A stretch of DNA of 12,980 nt, taken from assembly GCA_043763605.1 (NCBI GenBank), contig JAYULM010000233.1:1-12980 (forward strand), given 5' to 3'. Below the pieces are notes generated by a model, which saw only the letters and a list, made by a program, of their open reading frames with translations, had not been told where the DNA came from and searched no databases. How positions within the stretch are numbered: the first letter of the stretch is position 1; each line of letters starts with the position of its first letter. The position numbers and the translations under genes are program-made. The stretch comes from Armatimonadota bacterium (GTDB taxonomy: Bacteria; Armatimonadota; Armatimonadia; Armatimonadales; Armatimonadaceae). Positions 1 to 9,224 of the stretch are shown in pieces.

Positions 1-479
1 GCGCGATCAGGGACTTACAGCACCGGACGGACATTGTGCAGTCGTTCTTCCGAATGGCTGGTTTAGAAACTTAACGACGGATCAATAAGGATGAAGAACT
101 GAGATAGACAATCAACGCTGACGAGTAGGATGAAAGGCGGCTCGTCGAAAATACGGTCAATTCAAACTGACTTGTGTTGTCTATGCAGGATTTCGCGCCC
201 GCCGTACCCGGTTCATTCGCGGTAAAAATGTTTTCGTGGTCGGGATGATCTACCAGGCAAACCCCTTACACAACCGAAGCAAAATCGAAGATTTTTGAGA
301 GTTATAGCCAGGGCACTCATGCCCCGGTAACTCCGCCCCATCTACCGCGTCCTCAAGAATCCTCGTATCGTATACACGTGCGGCAATCCTCCGAGGCGCA
401 CACCGTGCTCGCCGCTCGCGACGCAATCCGCCACATATACGGGAACCCCGCCGCGCGTCCCGTGCGGCTGACCGAGTGC

Positions 480-887
480 CTAGTTCGCGTGCGTCACCGT
501 CCACCGCTTGCCGTCCGCCGACACGTGCTCCACATACGCGACGTGCCCATACGGGTTGCCGTCCCACGCGTCCAGCACCATCACGGAACCTGCGGTAGGG
601 GTGTCGGACCGCGTCGCGTTCGTCACCTTCTTCGTCCAGTGGCGGGCGTGCCTGCCGGAATCGGTGTCGAAGCGCAGCCACCAGCCGTCGTCCGCCGCGC
701 GAACACAGGCGTACCAGGTACATTCGCCTTTTGGGAGCGGGCGGCGCATCCAGGAAAGGTTCGCGTCACGCTCCGGCAGTACGCGGTTGCGCAACCGTTG
801 CCAGGCATTCGGGACCATTAGCAACGTCACCAGAACCAGCACCGCAAGCGATGCAGTACCCATCCCGACGGAACGCGACCATTTCAT
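480..887 (-). CDS. Small membrane-anchored CHAP-domain protein (cysteine/histidine-dependent amidohydrolase/peptidase, probable cell-wall amidase or peptidase)
   Basis: 135-aa ORF. N-terminal hydrophobic anchor (ASLAVLVLVTLLMVP). The segment GECTWYACVR carries the CHAP catalytic-Cys signature (C-T-W-[FY]). The downstream GHVAYVEHVSADG carries the conserved His segment. Stop TAG read from 482 to 480 on the minus strand. GC-rich coding composition contrasts with the flanking lower-GC DNA. Confidence 0.6.
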   Translation of the reverse strand: MKWSRSVGMGTASLAVLVLVTLLMVPNAWQRLRNRVLPERDANLSWMRRPLPKGECTWYACVRAADDGWWLRFDTDSGRHARHWTKKVTNATRSDTPTAGSVMVLDAWDGNPYGHVAYVEHVSADGKRWTVTHAN

Positions 888-1328: not shown

Positions 1329-3251
1329 TCACTTCACCAGCGGGTTCGTGAATTTCGGGTCGGCGGTCAGGGTGCCGTCGTTCAGGGTGCGCAGGAACGC
1401 CACCAGCGCATCGCGGTCCGCGACTGTGAGGGGCAGACGTTGCGGTTGCCCCTGTGGGTTTTTCAGGCGGTTGTCCAGAGCGGGACCGTTCTGTACGCCC
1501 CTGATGTAGTGGTCCACCGCCTGCTCCAGCGTCGCGAACCGACCGTCGTGCATGTAGGGACCGGTCAGCGCGACGTTTTTGAGCGACGGCGATTTGAAGA
1601 TGCGGGACTCGCCCGCGTCCAGACCGTTGCTGAGCGAGGTGGGGGCGAGGGCGAATGTGGGAGCCTGATGGCAGGAGTTGCAACCCGCGCCGCCCTGCCC
1701 CGGTCCGGTGGTGAACAACACCTTGCCGCGCTCTTCCTGCGCCGTATAGCCGGGAAATCGTGTTTCCAGACCCCGTTGCGGCAGGGCGGGGTTGAAGACG
1801 CGGGCGAACTCGGTATCGAAGCGGCTGTTTACCGAAACGATGCTACGTTCGTACTGCGCCAGTGCCCGCTGGATGCGGTCCTCGGTGATCGCCGGATCGC
1901 CGTACACCCAGCGGAACAGTTCGGGGTAGTACGGGAGTGTCCCCATCTTCGCCGTCACCGCGCCGAACCCGCCGTGCGCGGCGTCGAAGCCCATTTCGAC
2001 CTCGTTCTGGATCGGTTGGGTCGCCTGCGCTTCCACGCTTGCCGCCCGCTTGTCCCAGAACATCGCGCGCCCGGCGTAGAAGCGGAGATTCGCCAGACGC
2101 ATCGAGTGCGCGTCAGTGAACGCCGTCCCGTTGAAGCCCCGACTAAACCGGGCAGGGTCCACGAACCCGTTCGATTGCTGGTGGCAGGACGAGCAGGCGG
2201 TGGTGTCGTTGATGCTAAGCCGTTTGTCGAAGAAGAGCACCCTGCCCAGCGTCGCGCCCCGGTCCGTGACCGGGTTGTCAACCGGGGTGTTGTCCTGTTT
2301 GCGCACCGCGTTGTCGTAGTGCGCCGGGAACGCCGGGTTCGCGTAGTCCGGCAAGTTATTCACGTCGATATTCGTGTATTCGCGCACCCCGGCGAACGGG
2401 TCGGGCGTCGCGGTCGGAGTCGGCGAGGGAATCGGCGTCGCGGTCGGCGTAGGAGTGGGCGTCGGGAGAGGCGAGGGCGTCGGCGACGGCGCGGCGGAAA
2501 CTGTGAGCGGCAGGGTCGCGGTTTTGCCGGACTCGGTTTCCGTCACGGTGACGCTCGCCGTGCCGGGGGCGGTTCCGGTGACGGTCAGACTCGCGCCGCC
2601 GGGTACTACGGCGGCAACGGATGCGGGGGAGATCCCCCACCGCCACGTCGTCGCGCCGGTCAGGATCAGATTACCCGCCGCGTCGAGCGCACTCGCCGCG
2701 AACGTCGCCGTTTGCCCGACACCGACCCCGGACGCGGACTGTGTCAGCGCAAGGCGGTCGATAGTCGAGTTCATCGTAAGGTTCAGCGCGAACGTCTGCT
2801 CGGCGACGGCTTGCGCGATCTGTGTGCCGCTCGCCTGCGGCGGTTGGGCGTCGCCCGTCGCGTCGGCGTGTGCGGTCGCTGTGACAGTGAGCGCGCCGGG
2901 CGGTAGATTGTCGAACGCGGCACCGGTCGCCGGTCGCGCGATGACCTGACTGACACGAAACCCGGTGGCGTTCGTGATCGTGACGCGGACGCTGTTCGAC
3001 GCGATGGGGACCAGACGGGTGTCTTCGGAGCGCGCGGGCCATTCTATCGACACGGTCGCGCGGGCGGTGGGCGTGGCGACGGTGGGTGCGGCGGTAGTGG
3101 GGGCAACGACGACCGGTACGCCGCTCCCCGGATTACCGCCTCCACTCCCGCCGCCGCCGCAACCGGCGGCGATAAAGGCGATCCCGACGGGAAGCAGGAG
3201 CGCGGCGAGAACGGTGAGTGGGACCGGGATTTGTGCGGGGAATGTTTTCAT
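1329..3251 (-). CDS. Lipoprotein with N-terminal Big_2 (bacterial Ig-like) domain, Pro/Thr-rich linker and C-terminal di-haem cytochrome c peroxidase (CCP/MauG family) domain
   Basis: 640 aa. Signal peptide with lipobox IAAG|C followed by Gly/Ser-rich tether. Residues about 165-250 (LTQSASGVGVGQTATFAASALDAAGNLILTGATTWRW...SVTVTETESGKTATLPLTV) look like a Big_2 fold. PT linker PSPTPSPLPTPTPTPTATPIPSPTPTATP. Two haem-binding CxxCH motifs (CSSCH and CNSCH). Di-haem CCP-like blocks: GATLGRVLFFDKRLS upstream of the first motif, LPYYPELFRWVYGDPAITEDRIQRALAQYERS between motifs, and C-terminal YMHDGRFATLEQAVDHY ... DRDALVAFLRTLND. Confidence 0.8.
   Translation of the reverse strand: MKTFPAQIPVPLTVLAALLLPVGIAFIAAGCGGGGSGGGNPGSGVPVVVAPTTAAPTVATPTARATVSIEWPARSEDTRLVPIASNSVRVTITNATGFRVSQVIARPATGAAFDNLPPGALTVTATAHADATGDAQPPQASGTQIAQAVAEQTFALNLTMNSTIDRLALTQSASGVGVGQTATFAASALDAAGNLILTGATTWRWGISPASVAAVVPGGASLTVTGTAPGTASVTVTETESGKTATLPLTVSAAPSPTPSPLPTPTPTPTATPIPSPTPTATPDPFAGVREYTNIDVNNLPDYANPAFPAHYDNAVRKQDNTPVDNPVTDRGATLGRVLFFDKRLSINDTTACSSCHQQSNGFVDPARFSRGFNGTAFTDAHSMRLANLRFYAGRAMFWDKRAASVEAQATQPIQNEVEMGFDAAHGGFGAVTAKMGTLPYYPELFRWVYGDPAITEDRIQRALAQYERSIVSVNSRFDTEFARVFNPALPQRGLETRFPGYTAQEERGKVLFTTGPGQGGAGCNSCHQAPTFALAPTSLSNGLDAGESRIFKSPSLKNVALTGPYMHDGRFATLEQAVDHYIRGVQNGPALDNRLKNPQGQPQRLPLTVADRDALVAFLRTLNDGTLTADPKFTNPLVK
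2397..2492 (-). repeat. Low-complexity Pro/Thr/Ser linker-coding repeat inside the peroxidase gene
   Basis: DNA shows reiterated ggcgtcgg / gtcggcg units. Translation on the minus strand is (P-[TS])n, residues about 254-285 of the 640-aa protein. Typical flexible inter-domain linker, not a CRISPR or mobile repeat. Confidence 0.7.
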
Positions 3252-3297
3252 GGCTTTTCTTCGGGCAAACTCGTCTGTGTTGCGGCAACGATGCCGG

Positions 3298-3484
3298 GGG
3301 CGATGGTTCGGGCGTTGATCGGACGGTGAACCGTTCCGCTGGGAGCCTTCGGCTGTAGACGCTTCGCGTCAGGGAGTCGTTAGGCTGTCGCACGAACCGT
3401 CTGCCTCCGGTGACGCGAAGCGTCTACAGCCGAAGGCTCCCAGCGGAACGGTTCACCGTCCGATCAACGCCCGAACCATCGCCC
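3298..3484. repeat. Perfect inverted repeat: two 74-nt arms (3298-3371 and 3411-3484) separated by a 39-nt non-palindromic spacer. Giant hairpin/cruciform element in the intergenic region.
   Basis: I reverse-complemented arm 2 (tgacgcgaagcgtctacagccgaaggctcccagcggaacggttcaccgtccgatcaacgcccgaaccatcgccc). It is identical over 74/74 nt to arm 1 (gggcgatggttcgggcgttgatcggacggtgaaccgttccgctgggagccttcggctgtagacgcttcgcgtca). Spacer is gggagtcgttaggctgtcgcacgaaccgtctgcctccgg. The element lies in the 322-bp gap between the stop of the deacetylase gene (3574) and the start of the peroxidase gene (3251). Confidence 0.95.
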
Positions 3485-3573
3485 GTGTAGCAGGCTATCG
3501 CCCGATACTGAAGAGTTGCTGAAGGCGGCACGCTATCTTCGCCGAAGGGGAAAATGCCGGTCGCGAAGACGGC

Positions 3574-4581
3574 TCAGAGGAGCGCGAATCGGTAGCCGCG
3601 ATTGCGCAGTCCGGCGAGAAGGTCGGGCAGGGCGGCGCGGGTGTCGGCGACGGCGGCGTGCAGGGCGATCACCGCACCGGGGCGGGCGGCGAACAGGACG
3701 CGGCGCGTGATCTCGCGTGCGCCGGGGCGGGAATGGTCGTAGGGGACGACGACCGGGCGGCGGGGCGACGCGGGCGTGGTGCCGTCGGCAGTGCGCAGTT
3801 CGGTGGTCCCCGGCGGGCGGTACAGGGTCGGGCGGACGCCGGTTATCGTGCGCAAAAGATCGGCAGAGCGGGCGAGACCGGGGCGGCTTCCGTCGTGGTC
3901 CCAGGAGTGCATTTGCAGGCGGTGTCCTTCGTGCGCGGCGCGGCGGGCGAGGTTCGCGCCGACGCGGTGGGTCAGGTGTTCCGCGATGCAGAAAAACGTC
4001 GCGGGGGCGGCTTCCCGGCGCAGGATGTCCAATAATCCTTCATCCGGCGACCGTTCTACGCCGGAAGGCGGAAGCGTCGGGAAGTCGTCGAACGTCAGGA
4101 AGATGTCGCCGGAAAAATCGGACGCCGCCGGGGGGCGTTCGGTAGCGAGGCGGCGCAGGCGGGATTCGAGTTCGTCGGTGCGTACGATCCCCTGCCGCGT
4201 CCAGTCGATCATACCGTGCGCGTCCACGACCACGGTCCACGGTACCGCGCGCAGCCCCAGCCCCGCGCTGACCCGCCCGCCGGCATCAAGGAGAACGCTT
4301 TCTTCCGCCGCGCCGCCGCCACCGGGGAACCGTTCCGCCCAGCGTCCGTCCACGCTGATCGTCCGGTAGTCAATCGGTAGCCCGCGCAGGTTGTGCCGCA
4401 CGACGGCGAGGCGGCGGCTCTGCTCGCGCCATGTGTCGCACCACAGAGCGCAGAAGGACAGCACGGAAACCTGCCCCGGTCGCCAGGTTTGCGGGCGCGC
4501 GCCGCCGTACGGAAGCAGGGTGAACGCGGCGACGCGGTCGCCGGGACCGGACACGCGCGGGGGCGTCGTCGGCGGTTTCAC
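3574..4581 (-). CDS. Fusion protein: N-terminal thioredoxin-like (TlpA/redoxin-like, degenerate CxxC) domain + C-terminal NodB-type polysaccharide deacetylase domain
   Basis: 335 aa. N-terminal VAAFTLLPYGG...GQVSVLSFCALWCDTWREQ resembles the redoxin/TlpA motif (F.a.WC..C) but reads C-D-T-W (single Cys). C-terminal half has NodB motifs in canonical order: TFDDF (MT1 Asp-Asp), HSWDH (MT2 His-His), YRPPGTT (MT3 RxPxG), IALHAAV (MT5 LxH). Start is GTG at 4581-4579, overlapping the TGA stop of the upstream A2M gene (GTGA), which implies translational coupling. No obvious signal peptide. Confidence 0.7.
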   Translation of the reverse strand: MKPPTTPPRVSGPGDRVAAFTLLPYGGARPQTWRPGQVSVLSFCALWCDTWREQSRRLAVVRHNLRGLPIDYRTISVDGRWAERFPGGGGAAEESVLLDAGGRVSAGLGLRAVPWTVVVDAHGMIDWTRQGIVRTDELESRLRRLATERPPAASDFSGDIFLTFDDFPTLPPSGVERSPDEGLLDILRREAAPATFFCIAEHLTHRVGANLARRAAHEGHRLQMHSWDHDGSRPGLARSADLLRTITGVRPTLYRPPGTTELRTADGTTPASPRRPVVVPYDHSRPGAREITRRVLFAARPGAVIALHAAVADTRAALPDLLAGLRNRGYRFALL

Positions 4582-7500
4582 GGCGTTTTGTCCTCTTTCG
4601 GGGCATCACGAACGTCCAACACCTGCGCCGCGCTCCCGCCGCGCACCGCCGGGCGGCGGATCAACTCGCCGGTCGCGGGCAGTGCCATCAACATGCCCTC
4701 CGACTCGGACCGCAGGTAATAGCGGAACGTGACCGGCTCCGAACCGTTCACCGGCAGATAGTGGAACAGGGCACCGTCGCGCACCTCCTCGCGGGCGTTC
4801 CCGCCGCGCTCGGAGTCCACGAACTCGAACCCCGCCGGGAGCGGTTCGATCACCTTCACCGCGTCCGCCGTTTCGTTGGGCCAGACCACCACGGTGACAC
4901 GTACCGCCGCCCCGGGGCGCAGGCGCGATGCGGGCAACACTTCGCCCCAGACGCCGTACTCGTTCTGCGACTCGAACCGGCGCAGGACGCGCATCCCGGC
5001 GGCGATCTCGGCTGTCTGCGCGCGGTAGACCAGGGCTTCAGCGGTAACGAACGCTTCCCCCGCCGTGCTCCGGGCGCGCTTCAGCGTGACCGCGTTCGCG
5101 CCGTCCTTCAACAGGTCGCGGGGCACGTTCGCCGTCAGCGGGGCGATGCTTTCGGTGCCGGGGGCGCGTTTCTCCCAGGGCACCGCGACGCCGTTGACGG
5201 TCAGCGTGAAATCGTCGGCGGACGGCATTTCGCTCCCGGTGCCGTTACCACTGTTGCCGTTGCCCTGCGCACGGCTGTATAGGAGCAGGGCGCGGATGAT
5301 GTCGGCTTCCTCGGAAGGCGTCGCTTCCGGTCTGCCCTCGCCGTCGCCGCCGTCCGGGGGGAGCAACAGCCAGCGGGCAAGCTTGGTACGGGCGGGTGCG
5401 TCGTTGCCGTCATTCAGCGCGACCAGCGTTTCCAGGGCGCGCGCCGTGGTTTCGATCACGCCCGCCCGTTGCCCCGGTCGCTCCCCGGCGGGGATGTAAG
5501 CGGTTTCCGGTCCGGCGACGCTCTGGGAGGTGATCGCCCGGGTGAATTGGCGCGCCCGGTCTTTGTTTCCGGCTTCCAGAAACCCCTTCGCCAGAATCAG
5601 CGTCGCCGCCGGGGACAGCGTCCCGGCGTTGCGGTCCGCGACTTCCGCAAGGAACGGCGCGCTCGCCGGGTCGAGCGGGGCGAGTACCGCCGCCAGATAC
5701 GCCCGCTCCTCCCACAAGCCGGTTTCGCGGTACAGCGTGTTGCCGCCGCCGATCCCGCGTTTGAGCAGGTTTTCGGGGAACGGGACGCTTGCGGGCAGGA
5801 TTCCGGGGGCGCGTTTCAGGGCGACGAGTGCCCGCATGACGCGCGCGGTGACACGGGCGTCGGCGGGGGCGTCGTCCCACCAGCCCCACGCGCCACCCGG
5901 CGTTTGACCGCGCGATAGCAGGGCGAGGGCGTCGCGCAATGCCGCCGAGTCGGCGGGCGGGGCACCGGGCGTCGCCGCGACTAACAGCAAGTCCGCCGCC
6001 GCCAGCGTCCCGTATCCCGAATTTTTATACAGCCGCGCGGCGGCAGACCGCGCCGTGGCTCCGGCTCCGCCGCGCACCGACACCCGGAACTCGGTCGCCG
6101 GTTCGATGCGCCCGGCGGGCAGATCGAGCGACACCGTGGTCTCGTCGGCGGTGCCCGACACCGCCGCCCCGACCCGCGCGGTGGTCGCGACCCCGCGCGG
6201 GCGCACCGGCACCGAAACGCGGACGCGGTCCGACAGGTCAGCGAGCGTTTCGCCCGGTCCCGGTTCCGTGGTCAGGGTTCCTTCCAGCACCGCCCGCCCG
6301 TCCGGGGCGGGGATGGCGTCTGCCGACACGCGCCACTCCACCGTCGCCTCGCCCTTCGCCGGGACAGTTACCGACTGCGCCGCGTTCTCGCCCGGCGCGG
6401 GCTGTACGCCGGTCGCGGTCAGGGAAACGCGGAACGTCCGTTCGCGGTCGGTGCGGTTGCTCACGGTACCGATCAGGGTCAGGCGGTCGCCCTGTACGAA
6501 CTGTCGCGGCGTCGCGAGCCGGAGCATCACCGGGCGCGACGATGTGACGCGGCTCAGGGTATGCCCGACCGCCGTGGAACCGGTGACGCCGAACGCGGTT
6601 GCACGCCACGCCGTCAGGTTTCCGGGCAGTTCCACGGTGGCGACGGCGTTCCCGTCTGAACCGGTGACGAGGCGGGCGTTCCAGAATGCCGTGTCGAGGA
6701 ACTTTTGCCGCACCGGGGCGACGCCGGTCGGCTCCGCGTTCTGGTACGCCCCGCCGCTGACCTCCTCCGGCGCGGACGCGGCGGTTTGTGTGTGGTTTTC
6801 GCGGTACCCCCAGAACGCCCCATAAATGTCGGGCGTGGCGTCGGGGCGCACGGCGAAGATGGCGTCATCGATCACCGCCAGCGCGACCTCGGCTCCGGCG
6901 ACCGGTGCCCCCGTTTTGCCGTCACGCGCCCGCACCGTGTAGAGCACCCGGTCGCCGGGGCGGTAGTCGTTCCGGTCCGGCGTCACCGTCAGCGCGAGGC
7001 GGCGGGAGCGGTCGGGGACCGGGAGTGGTACGCCGCCGGTCAGGAGGCGAGTATAGCGCGTCTTGCTCGCCGGGTTTTCGCGCACCGCCACCCACTGCGA
7101 CGCGGAAACGTGCGCGTTGGGAGCCATCCCGGCGGTCGCAGGCAACTTCCACGTGTACGCCGATTTTCCCGGCGGCACGACTTTGTAGGCGAACAGCGCG
7201 TTGCCCTCGACGGTGAGCAGCACGGGACGTTCGGGCTTGTTCGCGGCGAGAAACACGCTGACGGTGTCGCCGGGCTGGTACGACGGCGCGCCCAGCCGGA
7301 CGCGCACACTCGGCTCCTCCCGCTCCGCCGCCACTTTCGTGTCGGGCGCGGACACATAAAACGCGGAAACGGCGACGGCGATTCGTTTCGCGCCGTCGGT
7401 GATTGTCGCGCGCAGTTCGACCTCGCCCTCCTTCGCGGCGGGCACGGTCGCGGTCGCCTTGCCGCTCGCCGGGACCACGGCGGCGGACTGGCTGAGCACG

Positions 7501-9224
7501 CGCCAGGAAGTGGCACCGGTCTTTTCGTCGTAGACGCGTTGCCGTGTCACCAAGCTCACCCGACCGCCGACCGGGCGACCGTCCAGGTCGGACAGGCGCA
7601 ACTCCACCGGCACGACGCCGTTGAGCGGCGCGGTATAGACTTTCGTACGGATGCCGAGGCGTAGCGACGCGGCGTACACGGGCACCGAGCCGGTCGCCGT
7701 GACCTCGCGCCGTTGCCCGTCGGTAACGGTGCAGGAGATCGCGTAGGAAGCGTCGCCGATGTCGCCGCGCGTCGGAAAGGTGATGTTCGCGCGCCCTTCG
7801 GCGTCTGTGGTCACGGTATCGTCGGCGACCACGTCATCGGCGGCGTACGTATCGCGGGCGTACAGGTTTCCGTCGCCGCTGGCAAACCAGGCGGAATCGG
7901 CGGCGTCGCTACCGTTGCCGTCGCCGCTCGCGAACGCGCCGTAGTATGGGGTGGCACTGCGCCGGATCACGTAGCGCACCGTCGCACCGGGGAGCGGCGC
8001 GCCGAAGTAGTAGGTCGCCTGTACCGCGAACGTCCCGGTTTCGCCGGACAGGTACCGCTTTTTCGCGGGCGTGACCGTCGCCAGAAAGTCCGGCTTGCGG
8101 TATTCGGCGACCGTGAACGTCGCGTACGCCTTTTGCCCGTCGCGGGCGGTCAACACCAGCGAGTACGGTCCCAGTGCCCCCTGGGCGGGAATCGCGAACG
8201 ACCCGGCGACCGTGCCGAGCGGACTGCTGGTCTCCGTGGTTTGCTGCTGGACGTTGTCGCGGCTGTCGCGCACCTCGGCGGTCACGGGAACGTTCGCTTC
8301 GGTTGCGTAGCCGGTCCCTTTCGTGCGGCGCAGGATCGCCCGGTACGACACCGTCGCGCCGGGGCGGTACACCGGTCGGTCGGTCTGCAGGTGACTGACC
8401 AGGCGGTTGTCCGGGTCGTTACTGCCGAGCGAGAGCGCGGCGATGTCGGCGGGTGTGCCCGGCGTTTCCCGCGTCACGATCACGGTCTGTGTGGTGTCCG
8501 GGCGCAGTTTCACCCGGTAGATGCCTTCGGAATCAGTGCGCCCTTCGGCACTGGATTTGCCGCTCGCGCGGTCCCACAGCGTCACCTTCGCACCGGTAAC
8601 AGGTGCGCCCGTGCCGTGATCCGTCACCCACGCCAGCAACGAATCGGGTGTCCGTTTGAGCACCACGGCGAGGTTCGTAACATTGACCACCGCCCAATCC
8701 TTCTTGCCGTCGCCGCCGTTCGCGACCAGCAGGTACGTTCCCGGCGGAAGTACCGGCAGGTTGAACTGCTTGCTCCGATAAATGTCGGGCTGTTCGCGCG
8801 ACGATTTCAACTTCGGGTCGCCGACCGTGACCGGGAAAACGCGGGCAGGCTTTCCGGGCGGCAACGCGTCCGGCATCGATCCGCTGTTGCCACCGTCGTT
8901 GCCGTCGCTGTTGTTCTTTTCGCGACGGAGCATCCACCGCGCGGCATCGATCTTGTAGGCGGAAACCGTGATGTGCGCCAGGTTGCGCGTATTGACATAC
9001 AGGCGAATGGCGGGACCGGGAGCCACATCACGCTTCGTGGACAGGCGCACCTCGGTTACAGGCGACGCGACCGGCGGCGGCGGTGCCGGCTTCTGCTGCG
9101 GGGACGGGTCCGCCGCGACGCCGCCGAGGAAAAAGATTCCGAGCGTCAGGGCGAGAGCGGCGACGACACCGAAAATCATCAGGATTCGCGGCAAAAAAGG
9201 TGCTTTGGAGAGGATCGACATAGT
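4578..9224 (-). CDS. Alpha-2-macroglobulin family protein, YfaS/MagD-like size class, lacking the CxEQ thioester, with N-terminal membrane anchor or signal peptide
   Basis: The six-frame ORF runs 4578-9611. Its first 129 codons are Arg-rich, overlap the AMMECR1 gene in another frame and look non-coding. The likely start is Met130 (ATG at 9224), giving MSILSKAPFLPRILMIFGVVAALALTLGIFFLGG (hydrophobic anchor, no lipobox Cys) and about 1547 aa. A2M hallmarks: FLDTAFWNARLVTGSDGNAVATVELPGNLTAWRATAFGVT (the ...TWR... block preceding the A2M domain) followed by RPVMLRLATPRQFVQGDRLTLIGTVSNRTD (the PF00207-like ...fv.l..P.svvrGe.v.l...v.Ny segment). Many beta-rich MG-like repeats upstream and a C-terminal receptor-binding-like domain. 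At the position where GCGEQ is expected the sequence reads YKNSGYGTLAAADL (no Cys-x-Glu-Gln). No CxEQ occurs anywhere in the protein. Confidence 0.85.
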   Translation of the reverse strand, partial: TMSILSKAPFLPRILMIFGVVAALALTLGIFFLGGVAADPSPQQKPAPPPPVASPVTEVRLSTKRDVAPGPAIRLYVNTRNLAHITVSAYKIDAARWMLRREKNNSDGNDGGNSGSMPDALPPGKPARVFPVTVGDPKLKSSREQPDIYRSKQFNLPVLPPGTYLLVANGGDGKKDWAVVNVTNLAVVLKRTPDSLLAWVTDHGTGAPVTGAKVTLWDRASGKSSAEGRTDSEGIYRVKLRPDTTQTVIVTRETPGTPADIAALSLGSNDPDNRLVSHLQTDRPVYRPGATVSYRAILRRTKGTGYATEANVPVTAEVRDSRDNVQQQTTETSSPLGTVAGSFAIPAQGALGPYSLVLTARDGQKAYATFTVAEYRKPDFLATVTPAKKRYLSGETGTFAVQATYYFGAPLPGATVRYVIRRSATPYYGAFASGDGNGSDAADSAWFASGDGNLYARDTYAADDVVADDTVTTDAEGRANITFPTRGDIGDASYAISCTVTDGQRREVTATGSVPVYAASLRLGIRTKVYTAPLNGVVPVELRLSDLDGRPVGGRVSLVTRQRVYDEKTGATSWRVLSQSAAVVPASGKATATVPAAKEGEVELRATITDGAKRIAVAVSAFYVSAPDTKVAAEREEPSVRVRLGAPSYQPGDTVSVFLAANKPERPVLLTVEGNALFAYKVVPPGKSAYTWKLPATAGMAPNAHVSASQWVAVRENPASKTRYTRLLTGGVPLPVPDRSRRLALTVTPDRNDYRPGDRVLYTVRARDGKTGAPVAGAEVALAVIDDAIFAVRPDATPDIYGAFWGYRENHTQTAASAPEEVSGGAYQNAEPTGVAPVRQKFLDTAFWNARLVTGSDGNAVATVELPGNLTAWRATAFGVTGSTAVGHTLSRVTSSRPVMLRLATPRQFVQGDRLTLIGTVSNRTDRERTFRVSLTATGVQPAPGENAAQSVTVPAKGEATVEWRVSADAIPAPDGRAVLEGTLTTEPGPGETLADLSDRVRVSVPVRPRGVATTARVGAAVSGTADETTVSLDLPAGRIEPATEFRVSVRGGAGATARSAAARLYKNSGYGTLAAADLLLVAATPGAPPADSAALRDALALLSRGQTPGGAWGWWDDAPADARVTARVMRALVALKRAPGILPASVPFPENLLKRGIGGGNTLYRETGLWEERAYLAAVLAPLDPASAPFLAEVADRNAGTLSPAATLILAKGFLEAGNKDRARQFTRAITSQSVAGPETAYIPAGERPGQRAGVIETTARALETLVALNDGNDAPARTKLARWLLLPPDGGDGEGRPEATPSEEADIIRALLLYSRAQGNGNSGNGTGSEMPSADDFTLTVNGVAVPWEKRAPGTESIAPLTANVPRDLLKDGANAVTLKRARSTAGEAFVTAEALVYRAQTAEIAAGMRVLRRFESQNEYGVWGEVLPASRLRPGAAVRVTVVVWPNETADAVKVIEPLPAGFEFVDSERGGNAREEVRDGALFHYLPVNGSEPVTFRYYLRSESEGMLMALPATGELIRRPAVRGGSAAQVLDVRDAPKEDKTP

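What the first reader, a model, noticed from the sequence alone, without database searches (positions are those of the whole stretch)
3298..3484. Perfect 74-bp-arm inverted repeat (187-bp palindromic element) between the A2M operon and the peroxidase gene
Two 74-nt arms are exact reverse complements (74/74) around a 39-nt asymmetric spacer. This is far longer than an intrinsic terminator and far longer than typical REP/BIME units. A perfect stem of this length would extrude as a cruciform in DNA. Transcribed from either strand it gives a roughly 74-bp perfect dsRNA, an RNase III substrate. Because the element is a palindrome, both strands give the same hairpin. Candidate interpretations: (i) MITE-like non-autonomous mobile element (size fits, but I see no flanking target-site duplication); (ii) bidirectional terminator/insulator separating the A2M operon from the peroxidase gene; (iii) processed structured RNA or a site for a structure-specific DNA-binding protein or recombinase; (iv) fold-back assembly or amplification artefact. 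Perfect conservation of such a long stem suggests either recent origin or selection on pairing.
Basis: seen in the sequence. Interest (0 to 1): 0.75.

Follow-up and report, generated by a model that had tools for sequence, protein, structure and literature searches.

The report
Palindromic intergenic repeat, REPIN-like family copy
The perfect 74-bp-arm hairpin is real, and it is one unusually perfect copy of a small family of non-coding palindromic repeats scattered between genes in an uncultured Armatimonadota bacterium, the same general kind of selfish or co-opted repeat as REP/REPIN and MITE elements, so it is interesting but not a new kind of biology.

Summary
Arms 3298-3371 and 3411-3484 are 74/74 complementary around a 39-nt spacer. 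Predicted folding energy is -190 kcal/mol, z = -20.

The element is not unique. Related inverted-repeat elements occur in at least three other places:
- E2, after a PBP4 (Peptidase_S13) gene in the same strain.
- E4, after an EamA gene in the same strain.
- E3, in another Armatimonadota MAG.

These copies have 51-62-nt arms that are 85-86 % complementary, with 37-41-nt spacers. Each arm is a roughly 52-nt module of three mini-hairpins and includes a GTAG placed 5' of a hairpin, which is the REP hallmark. Changes that preserve pairing occur both within arms and between arms. All four copies lie 0-90 nt after a stop codon. None has a target-site duplication. Closely syntenic relatives lack the element.

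I read it as a REPIN/MITE-like dispersed palindromic repeat. The window copy's arms have been made identical and extended 22 nt into the flank. No transposase was found, so the way it moves is inferred.

One caveat: public assemblies of this strain either break inside the arms or join the peroxidase-side arm to a different upstream gene. The local arrangement therefore needs confirmation from reads.

I found no terminator signal and no Rfam family match.

The parts
3298..3371 (.). Peroxidase-proximal arm P (74 nt). It is identical in contigs L001, L002 and, in part, L003.
3372..3410 (.). Asymmetric 39-nt spacer. It is homologous, in the same orientation, to the 41-nt spacer of copy E2.
   Evidence: Global alignment score 8 against -5.6 +/- 3.5 for shuffles; 1 of 2000 shuffles reach it. 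Alignments.
3411..3484 (.). Deacetylase-proximal arm D (74 nt), the exact reverse complement of P.
   Evidence: The outer 41 nt next to the deacetylase flank are confirmed independently by contig L007.
3312..3373 (+). Family-level arm module in P (about 52 nt plus flank): hairpin H1 3320-3338, H2 3344-3354, GTAG 3355-3358, H3 3358-3370.
   Evidence: Covariance model R1 scores 90.4 bits. Structure and pair counts.
3409..3470 (-). Family-level arm module in D: H3 3412-3424, H2 3428-3438, H1 3444-3462.
   Evidence: R1 scores 91.5 bits.
3298..3319 (.). Outer 22 nt of P (GGGCGATGGTTCGGGCGTTGAT). Not conserved in the other family copies, so it is a locus-specific extension of the palindrome.
   Evidence: Alignments. 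The E4 flank was compared by eye.
3463..3484 (.). Outer 22 nt of D, the mirror image of 3298-3319.
1329..3251 (-). Downstream gene: di-haem cytochrome c peroxidase (CCP_MauG) with a lipoprotein-type N-terminus. Its ATG lies 46 nt from the element.
3574..4581 (-). Upstream gene: polysaccharide deacetylase, the last gene of the A2M operon. Its stop codon lies 90 nt (89 intervening bases) from the element.

Best explanation
The 187-bp palindrome (E1) is a genuine genomic copy of a lineage-restricted family of non-coding palindromic intergenic repeats in an Armatimonadota bacterium.

What the family looks like (shown). The family unit is an inverted doublet of a roughly 52-nt module around a 37-41-nt spacer that has a direction. 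Each module has this layout:
- hairpin H1: CGG-ACNN-TRAA-NNGT-T-CCG
- G/C-TGGG
- hairpin H2: AGCC-TTC-GGCT
- GTAG
- hairpin H3: GACGC-TTC-GCGTC
This is the architecture of a REPIN, meaning a REP doublet that forms a hairpin.

How it spreads (inferred). Such elements spread or are maintained as single-stranded hairpins, most probably through a Y1 HUH transposase of the RAYT/IS200 type encoded elsewhere in the genome. That mechanism leaves no target-site duplication.

Why this copy is perfect (inferred). The two arms have been homogenised, and the palindrome has been extended 22 nt beyond the family module into locus-specific flank. The likely cause is intramolecular template switching or gene conversion between the arms, the process known as quasipalindrome correction. 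That would explain why it is perfect and longer than its relatives.

Consequences in place (inferred). Read-through from the A2M-deacetylase operon would produce a 74-bp perfect RNA duplex just upstream of the peroxidase start. That duplex would be an RNase III substrate and a barrier to 3' exonucleases. As a dispersed repeat, the element also acts as a recombination and assembly breakpoint.
For: Family membership.
- E2 (L002 3881-4023) has 51-nt arms at 86 % and a 41-nt spacer. It overlaps the stop codon of a Peptidase_S13 gene.
- E3 (L004 2708-2868, Armatimonadota MAG ES-bin-63) has 62-nt arms at 85 % and a 37-nt spacer.
- E4 is an arm at L002 160-87 on the minus strand, about 20 nt after the EamA stop. 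R1 scores it 28.3 bits, E = 1.7e-6.
- E1, E2 and E4 are three copies within about 33 kb of DNA from one strain.

Structure.
- All copies fold into long hairpins, with z = -9.6 to -22.
- Within arms, 97.9 % of cells pair, against 28-48 % when partners are slid. Three pairs carry double changes.
- Between arms, three further pairs are kept by double changes between E1 and E3.

REP-like signature.
- GTAG lies immediately 5' of hairpin H3 in the arms of E1, E2 and E3.
- This matches the published definition of a REP as GTAG 5' of the hairpin foot (PMC3479197) and of a REPIN as an inverted REP doublet plus spacer that forms a hairpin (PMC3337134).

Insertion context.
- All four copies are extragenic and lie 0-90 nt after a stop codon.
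- No TSD was found.
- Two relatives with conserved EamA-DUF4394-PeptS13 synteny have no element in 39 kb. Their homology to L002 stops at the first bases of E2.

Authenticity of E1.
- It is identical in two assemblies.
- The junction between the deacetylase flank and the arm is confirmed by L007.
- The E1 spacer is homologous to the E2 spacer.

Locus-specific extension.
- The outer 22 nt of the arms are not shared with E2-distal, E3 or E4.
Against: - No RAYT or other transposase was seen next to any copy or anywhere in the roughly 45 kb available from these genomes. The way the element moves is therefore untested.
- Only four copies are known. The copy number per genome could not be measured.
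- One genome-collection scan and one metagenome scan with exact 19-23-nt core patterns returned only E3 and one chance hit.
- E4 has CGAG in place of GTAG and a different H2.
- Single arms are not significantly more stable than shuffled sequence (z = -0.7 to -2.3).
- The apparent covariation rests on four distinct arms. It could arise from template switching within the palindrome rather than from selection.
- Assemblies disagree about what lies next to the peroxidase-side arm. Part of the perfect symmetry could therefore reflect an assembler's choice among near-identical repeat copies.
Confidence: 0.6

Rival explanations
1. The element is a classical MITE. On this reading it is a deletion derivative of a DDE-type insertion sequence, its long arms are terminal inverted repeats, and it is mobilised in trans by the parent IS.
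For: It has a dispersed arm-spacer-arm architecture and a size of 145-187 bp. It sits in intergenic positions and is absent from syntenic relatives.
Against: - No target-site duplication was found at any of three complete copies.
- The arms are 51-74 nt and built of internal hairpins, rather than short 15-40-nt TIRs.
- No IS or transposase was seen on any contig.
- There was no similarity to anything in the plasmid or phage collections.
Confidence: 0.12
2. The element is a host-selected structural element rather than a mobile one. Possible roles are an mRNA 3'-end stabiliser, an RNase III processing site, a Rho-independent attenuator that decouples the A2M operon from the peroxidase, or a binding site for a structure-specific protein.
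For: All four copies sit just downstream of a stop codon. Both long and short hairpins are preserved through paired changes. The core is 100 % conserved over about 40 nt between two genomes whose GC content is 56 % and 63-66 %.
Against: - There is no T-tract and no terminator consensus.
- There is no Rfam family match. The only hits are sub-threshold matches to generic miRNA hairpin models.
- Orthologous sites in relatives lack the element, so it is dispensable at those loci.
- Co-option of selfish repeats is the usual route to such roles, so this reading partly overlaps the main one instead of replacing it.
Confidence: 0.15
3. The perfect 74/74 symmetry or the local gene order is an assembly artefact. 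The assembler may have taken a fold-back or wrong-exit path through near-identical repeat copies. In that case the true locus would be a less perfect element, or the deacetylase and the peroxidase would not be neighbours.
For: - The same strain (3.3 kb 100 % identical) gives a second contig in which the same peroxidase-side arm follows a Peptidase_S13 gene with a different spacer and an imperfect distal arm.
- The left half of that version is confirmed by a Logan contig.
- MEGAHIT k119 contigs stop symmetrically 41 nt into each arm.
- A further three of the five contigs carrying the A2M gene are only 5-10 kb long.
- All contigs also end within 86 nt of each other about 440 nt beyond the CHAP gene. 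The 3.4-kb arm-peroxidase-CHAP segment is therefore bounded by graph branch points on both sides.
Against: - The junction between the deacetylase flank and the outer 41 nt of the arm exists in an independent assembly. An inverted repeat of at least 41 nt, including the 22 non-family nucleotides, is therefore real.
- The spacer is a bona fide family spacer, not junk.
- Two assemblies of different contig length agree base for base.
- Natural imperfect relatives show that the architecture is biological.
Confidence: 0.13

Closest known systems
REPINs (REP doublets forming hairpins) and their RAYT transposases, as described in Pseudomonas fluorescens SBW25 and E. coli BIMEs
   Same: Both consist of two short palindrome-containing units in inverted orientation around a variable spacer, and the whole folds into a long hairpin. 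Both are extragenic, often lie at the 3' ends of genes, lack a TSD and are lineage-restricted. This family has GTAG immediately 5' of a small hairpin, and its GTGGGAG-type head resembles Pseudomonas REP heads (PMC3337134, PMC3479197).
   Different: Here each arm is a composite of three hairpins (about 52 nt) rather than one REP of about 20-25 nt. The element is 145-187 bp, against about 89-110 bp for REPINs. No RAYT was found, and copy number is unknown. The phylum is Armatimonadota, for which I know of no described REPIN system (own knowledge; a literature search found none).
Bacterial MITE-like palindromic repeats that are transcribed into long hairpins: Correia/NEMIS elements of Neisseria and ERIC/IRU of enterobacteria (own knowledge)
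   Same: These are 100-160-bp intergenic elements with long inverted arms. They are co-transcribed with neighbouring genes, and their RNA duplexes are cut by RNase III (Correia) or alter mRNA stability (ERIC).
   Different: Correia elements have 26-bp TIRs, a TA duplication and an IHF site. ERIC elements insert at TA. No TSD or comparable motif is seen here, and there is no sequence similarity.
Quasipalindrome correction by intramolecular template switching (Ripley model, studied in E. coli; own knowledge)
   Same: It turns imperfect inverted repeats into perfect ones and can lengthen them. This is the proposed origin of the 74/74 arms and of the 22-nt extension into the flank.
   Different: It is a mutational process, not an element family. 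It is inferred here from the end state only.

Membership tests
REP / REPIN | The unit is a short imperfect palindrome with a conserved 5' tetranucleotide (GTAG) at the foot of the hairpin. | tested here: met
   GTAG directly precedes hairpin H3 (ACGC-TTC-GCGT) in all arms of E1, E2 and E3. E4 has CGAG instead. The definition is taken from PMC3479197.
REP / REPIN | [quoted passage not shown] | tested here: met
   E1, E2 and E3 have arms of 51-74 nt and spacers of 37-41 nt, with folding z = -9.6 to -22.
REP / REPIN | Tens to hundreds of extragenic copies per genome. | tested here: inconclusive
   Three copies were found in about 33 kb of one strain and one in another MAG, all extragenic. No whole genome was available. 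Scans of the collections with exact core patterns found only one further locus.
REP / REPIN | A single-copy RAYT (Y1 HUH transposase, PF01797) gene flanked by the repeats. | not testable with these tools
   No such gene lies on any contig fetched. The rest of the genome could not be reached.
MITE (derived from a DDE-type IS) | Terminal inverted repeats flanked by a target-site duplication. | tested here: not met
   No flanking direct repeat longer than 3 bp was found at E1, E2 or E3 with boundaries shifted by up to 6 nt.
MITE (derived from a DDE-type IS) | A parent IS with matching termini in the same genome or lineage. | not testable with these tools
   No IS lies on the available contigs. 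There were no hits in plasmids, phages or viral contigs.
Intrinsic (Rho-independent) terminator | A GC-rich hairpin followed by a T-tract. | tested here: not met
   No terminator-like site was found on either strand in 3100-3700. The sequence after either arm has no T-run.
Any curated RNA family (Rfam 15) | A score at or above the family's gathering threshold. | tested here: not met
   There were no hits at gathering score in the window, L002 or L004. The only matches were sub-threshold ones to miRNA precursor hairpin models (32 bits against a gathering score of 52), as expected for any long hairpin.

The most novel reading that the evidence does not exclude
The family elements may be sites of active, possibly enzyme-driven, DNA rearrangement. 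In one clonal population the same arm-peroxidase-CHAP segment is found joined either to the A2M-deacetylase operon or to the PBP4 gene, with different spacers. The 3.4-kb segment is bounded by assembly branch points on both sides. This could reflect a cassette-like module that moves or is exchanged between element copies, swapping the upstream context of the peroxidase, rather than passive repeats or a misassembly.
Probability: 0.07. Interest if true: 0.7.

Novelty: new member of a known kind. Interest (0 to 1): 0.3.

Why it matters
If confirmed, this would be a REPIN/MITE-like palindromic repeat family in Armatimonadota, a phylum known mainly from MAGs, where I found no published description of such repeats.

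Its arms are unusually composite, with three hairpins each. One copy has been driven to a perfect 74-bp palindrome, a length expected to be unstable in DNA and to give a long dsRNA when transcribed.

In practice the family explains why assemblies of this organism fragment and disagree at these loci. It also marks breaks in synteny. None of this changes current understanding of how bacterial repeats work.

Tried and rejected
- Rfam search by E-value and at gathering score: only sub-threshold miRNA-hairpin matches.
- Terminator and promoter scan: nothing found.
- tRNA scan of flanks and contig ends: none found.
- Metagenome scan with the 19-mer core: one AT-rich chance hit with no partner arm, rejected.
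- Three viral-contig scans, plus distant blastn against plasmids and phages: no match.
- Peroxidase orthologues in relatives, to look for an empty site: no conserved synteny and no element, so this was uninformative for E1.
- Attempt to fetch the 13.5-kb NCBI contig carrying the PBP4/EamA block, which would have shown the complete E4 and the true neighbour of E2. It was not returned by the PBP4 look-up. The NCBI-length EamA protein was not on record.
- A2M, deacetylase and Band_7 look-ups: the shorter contigs from the other assemblies were counted but not shown.
- attC site of an integron: considered from memory and rejected. There are no R''/R' core sites at the element ends, and the neighbouring genes are not cassette-like.
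- Coding potential: only spurious overlapping ORFs (3133-3393 on the - strand, 2965-3318 on the + strand), which are not shared by the other copies.

Full report
OBSERVATION

The inverted repeat is exactly as described. Arms 3298-3371 and 3411-3484 are 74/74 complementary around a 39-nt spacer. Nothing else in the window comes close: the next inverted repeat is 35 nt at 74 %.

Folded as RNA, either strand forms one long hairpin of about -190 kcal/mol. Shuffles average about -88 kcal/mol, z is -20 to -22, and 0 of 200 shuffles fold as well.

All neighbouring genes are on the minus strand:
- AMMECR1
- A2M, 4578-9221
- a polysaccharide deacetylase, 3574-4581, overlapping A2M by 4 nt
- the element
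- a di-haem cytochrome c peroxidase lipoprotein, 1329-3251

The element lies 90 nt after the deacetylase stop and 46 nt before the peroxidase ATG.

SOURCE

The window is a 12,980-nt NCBI contig. It is 100 % identical over 12,936 nt to ENA scaffold ERZ28573671 BUSI22-1_SAMN19433758 scaffold_1635, which is 25,973 nt long. Named homologues of its proteins come from Armatimonadota MAGs.

THE ELEMENT IS NOT UNIQUE

Looking up the peroxidase protein returned a second contig from another assembly, L002 (ERZ27314335 k141_936453). From 8 nt inside the spacer through the peroxidase and CHAP genes, 3.3 kb in all, L002 is 100 % identical to the window. Its upstream gene is different: a Peptidase_S13/PBP4 gene. 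The element there (E2) has the same peroxidase-side arm, a different 41-nt spacer, and an imperfect distal arm (51 nt, 86 %) that overlaps the PBP4 stop codon.

A scan of one genome per species with a 22-base core pattern found one locus, in Armatimonadota MAG ES-bin-63 (L004). That copy (E3) has 62-nt arms at 85 % and a 37-nt spacer. It lies between an unannotated 128-aa ORF and a SUKH-1 gene.

I built a covariance model from the six arms (R1). It found a fourth, more diverged arm (E4; 28.3 bits, E = 1.7e-6) about 20 nt downstream of the EamA gene at the start of L002.

The family therefore has three copies in about 33 kb of one strain and at least one copy in another genome. All four sit in different intergenic contexts, and all lie 0-90 nt after a stop codon.

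ANATOMY

The family unit is a module of about 52 nt present in both arms:
- CGG-ACNN-TRAA-NNGT-T-CCG (hairpin H1)
- G/C-TGGG
- AGCC-TTC-GGCT (hairpin H2)
- GTAG
- GACGC-TTC-GCGTC (hairpin H3)

Across the six arms (four distinct module sequences), 97.9 % of cells in these three hairpins pair, against 28-48 % when partners are slid by 1-3 columns. Three pairs show changes on both sides. In H1, ACGG/CCGT changes to ACGT/ACGT and to ACAC/GTGT. In H3, GACGC/GCGTC changes to GACCC/GGGTC.

Between arms, three pairs of the long stem are also kept by double changes between E1 and E3. In E1 and E3 the two arms of one element therefore carry the same variants. In E2 and E3, some differences between the two arms break the long stem but keep the small hairpins.

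Single arms are only marginally more stable than shuffled sequence (z = -0.7 to -2.3). With so few sequences, the covariation is suggestive and not conclusive. It could also arise from templated mutation inside palindromes.

The spacers of E1 and E2 are significantly similar in the same orientation (1 of 2000 shuffles reach the score), so the element has a polarity. No flanking duplication longer than 3 bp exists at any complete copy.

WHAT IS SPECIAL ABOUT THE WINDOW COPY

E1's palindrome extends 22 nt beyond the family module on each side (3298-3319 and 3463-3484). These 22 nt are not shared with E2's distal side, E3 or E4. E1 is also the only copy with perfect arms.

I infer that the arms were homogenised and the palindrome was lengthened into the local flank. 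The likely mechanism is intramolecular template switching or gene conversion (quasipalindrome correction; own knowledge). This is inferred from the end state, not demonstrated.

COMPARISON WITH RELATIVES

Two relatives (L013, L014) share the EamA-DUF4394-PBP4 block, with proteins 71-81 % identical. They have no element in 39 kb. Downstream of PBP4 they carry a convergent small gene and a TetR gene, not the peroxidase.

Nucleotide homology with L002 stops at GACGGAC, which is the first bases of E2's H1. In the source strain the conserved block is bracketed by E4 and E2, so the elements mark breaks in synteny.

Peroxidase orthologues in other relatives have unrelated neighbours and no element.

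ASSEMBLY CAVEAT

Public assemblies of this strain disagree at the element:
- Two (the ENA scaffold and the NCBI contig) run deacetylase-E1-peroxidase.
- One (k141) runs PBP4-E2-peroxidase.
- A Logan contig confirms the left half of E2 and stops 23 nt into the shared arm.
- Two k119 contigs stop 41 nt into each arm, symmetrically. That is exactly the one position where E1's arm (CCG-C-TGGG) departs from the family consensus (CCG-G-TGGG).
- All peroxidase-bearing contigs also end within 86 nt of each other, about 440 nt past the CHAP gene.

The 3.4-kb arm-peroxidase-CHAP segment is therefore bounded by graph branch points on both sides. It could be duplicated, it could be structurally polymorphic, or one of the joins could be wrong. 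I could not resolve this without reads.

A pure fold-back artefact is unlikely for four reasons:
- The junction between the deacetylase flank and the outer 41 nt of the arm exists in an independent assembly.
- The spacer is a genuine family spacer.
- Two assemblies agree base for base.
- Imperfect natural relatives have the same architecture.

WHAT IT IS NOT

- Not a terminator: no T-tract and no terminator consensus.
- Not a promoter by consensus scan.
- Not a curated RNA family.
- Not a tRNA.
- Not similar to anything in plasmids, phages or viral contigs.
- Not accompanied by a transposase on any available contig.

INTERPRETATION

The best-supported reading is a REPIN-like palindromic intergenic repeat. 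It consists of two inverted units carrying small hairpins, one of them preceded by GTAG, around a variable spacer. It is extragenic, has no TSD and is lineage-restricted.

These features match the published definitions. REPs carry a conserved GTAG 5' of the hairpin foot, and that GTAG is required for binding and cleavage by TnpA-REP (PMC3479197). REPINs are inverted REP doublets with a spacer that form hairpins and are thought to be moved by RAYTs (PMC3337134, PMC3116915).

Membership is not established. The defining RAYT association and the high copy number could not be tested. The arms are also composite and longer than a canonical REP. I therefore say it works like a REPIN and do not say it is one.

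A DDE-type MITE is less likely because there is no TSD. A host-selected RNA or DNA structure is possible and would overlap with co-option of a selfish repeat.

The dsRNA and RNase III consequence for the A2M-operon transcript and for the peroxidase 5' region follows from the structure, but it is untested.

VERDICT

The perfect arms and the conflicting junctions add some interest. Interest is 0.3, and I classify the novelty as a new member of a known kind.

Noticed in passing
L002 1-69 (ENA ERZ27314335 k141_936453): The contig starts with an untrimmed Illumina TruSeq P7 index adapter (CAAGCAGAAGACGGCATACGAGAT-index-GTGACTGGAGTTCAGACGTGTGCTCTTCCGATCT). It is fused directly to genomic sequence at position 70, which lies in the central spacer of element copy E4. 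This is adapter contamination in a public assembly. It may also mark a recurrent fragment end in the loop of a palindrome.
   Followed up: partly
window 1-480; L002 6864-7384: An AT-richer non-coding stretch of about 440-520 nt lies downstream of the CHAP gene. All four contigs (window, L001, L002, L003) end there within 86 nt of each other, so there is a second assembly branch point. No tRNA, Rfam family or element module was found in it.
   Followed up: partly
L007 end (6072-6112) and L003 start (1-41); window 3339/3443: Two MEGAHIT k119 contigs stop exactly 41 nt into each arm. That is the single position where E1 (CCG-C-TGGG) differs from the family consensus (CCG-G-TGGG). This may indicate heterogeneity at that base in the population.
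   Followed up: no
L004 848-907 and 398-545 (Armatimonadota MAG ES-bin-63): The same 3.3-kb contig holds two other unrelated palindromes. One has perfect 28-nt arms with a 4-nt loop (TTTTCTCCCTCCCCCAGCCCCCTCTCAT / ATGAGAGGGGGCTGGGGGAGGGAGAAAA). The other has 37-nt arms at 89 % with a 74-nt spacer. This genome may be rich in palindromic intergenic repeats of several families.
   Followed up: no
L002 3881-3890 against L013 and L014: The PBP4 coding sequence of the source strain ends inside hairpin H1 of element E2, with the stop codon TAA in the H1 loop. Relatives end with different last codons (DGR*/DGL* against DGH*). The element therefore appears to have replaced the last codon and the stop of the gene.
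   Followed up: partly
L008 12438-13982 (scaffold_1635, beyond the window end): Next to the Band_7 gene there is a PIN/VapC plus HTH_17 pair and an NTP_transf_2 (nucleotidyltransferase) gene. These look like toxin-antitoxin-type modules.
   Followed up: no
window 1329-3251 (-): The di-haem peroxidase has an N-terminal extension of about 300 aa with a lipoprotein-type signal (…LLLLPVGIAFIAAGC…). In relatives the extension carries a Big_2 domain. The CCP_MauG domain begins only at residue 332.
   Followed up: no
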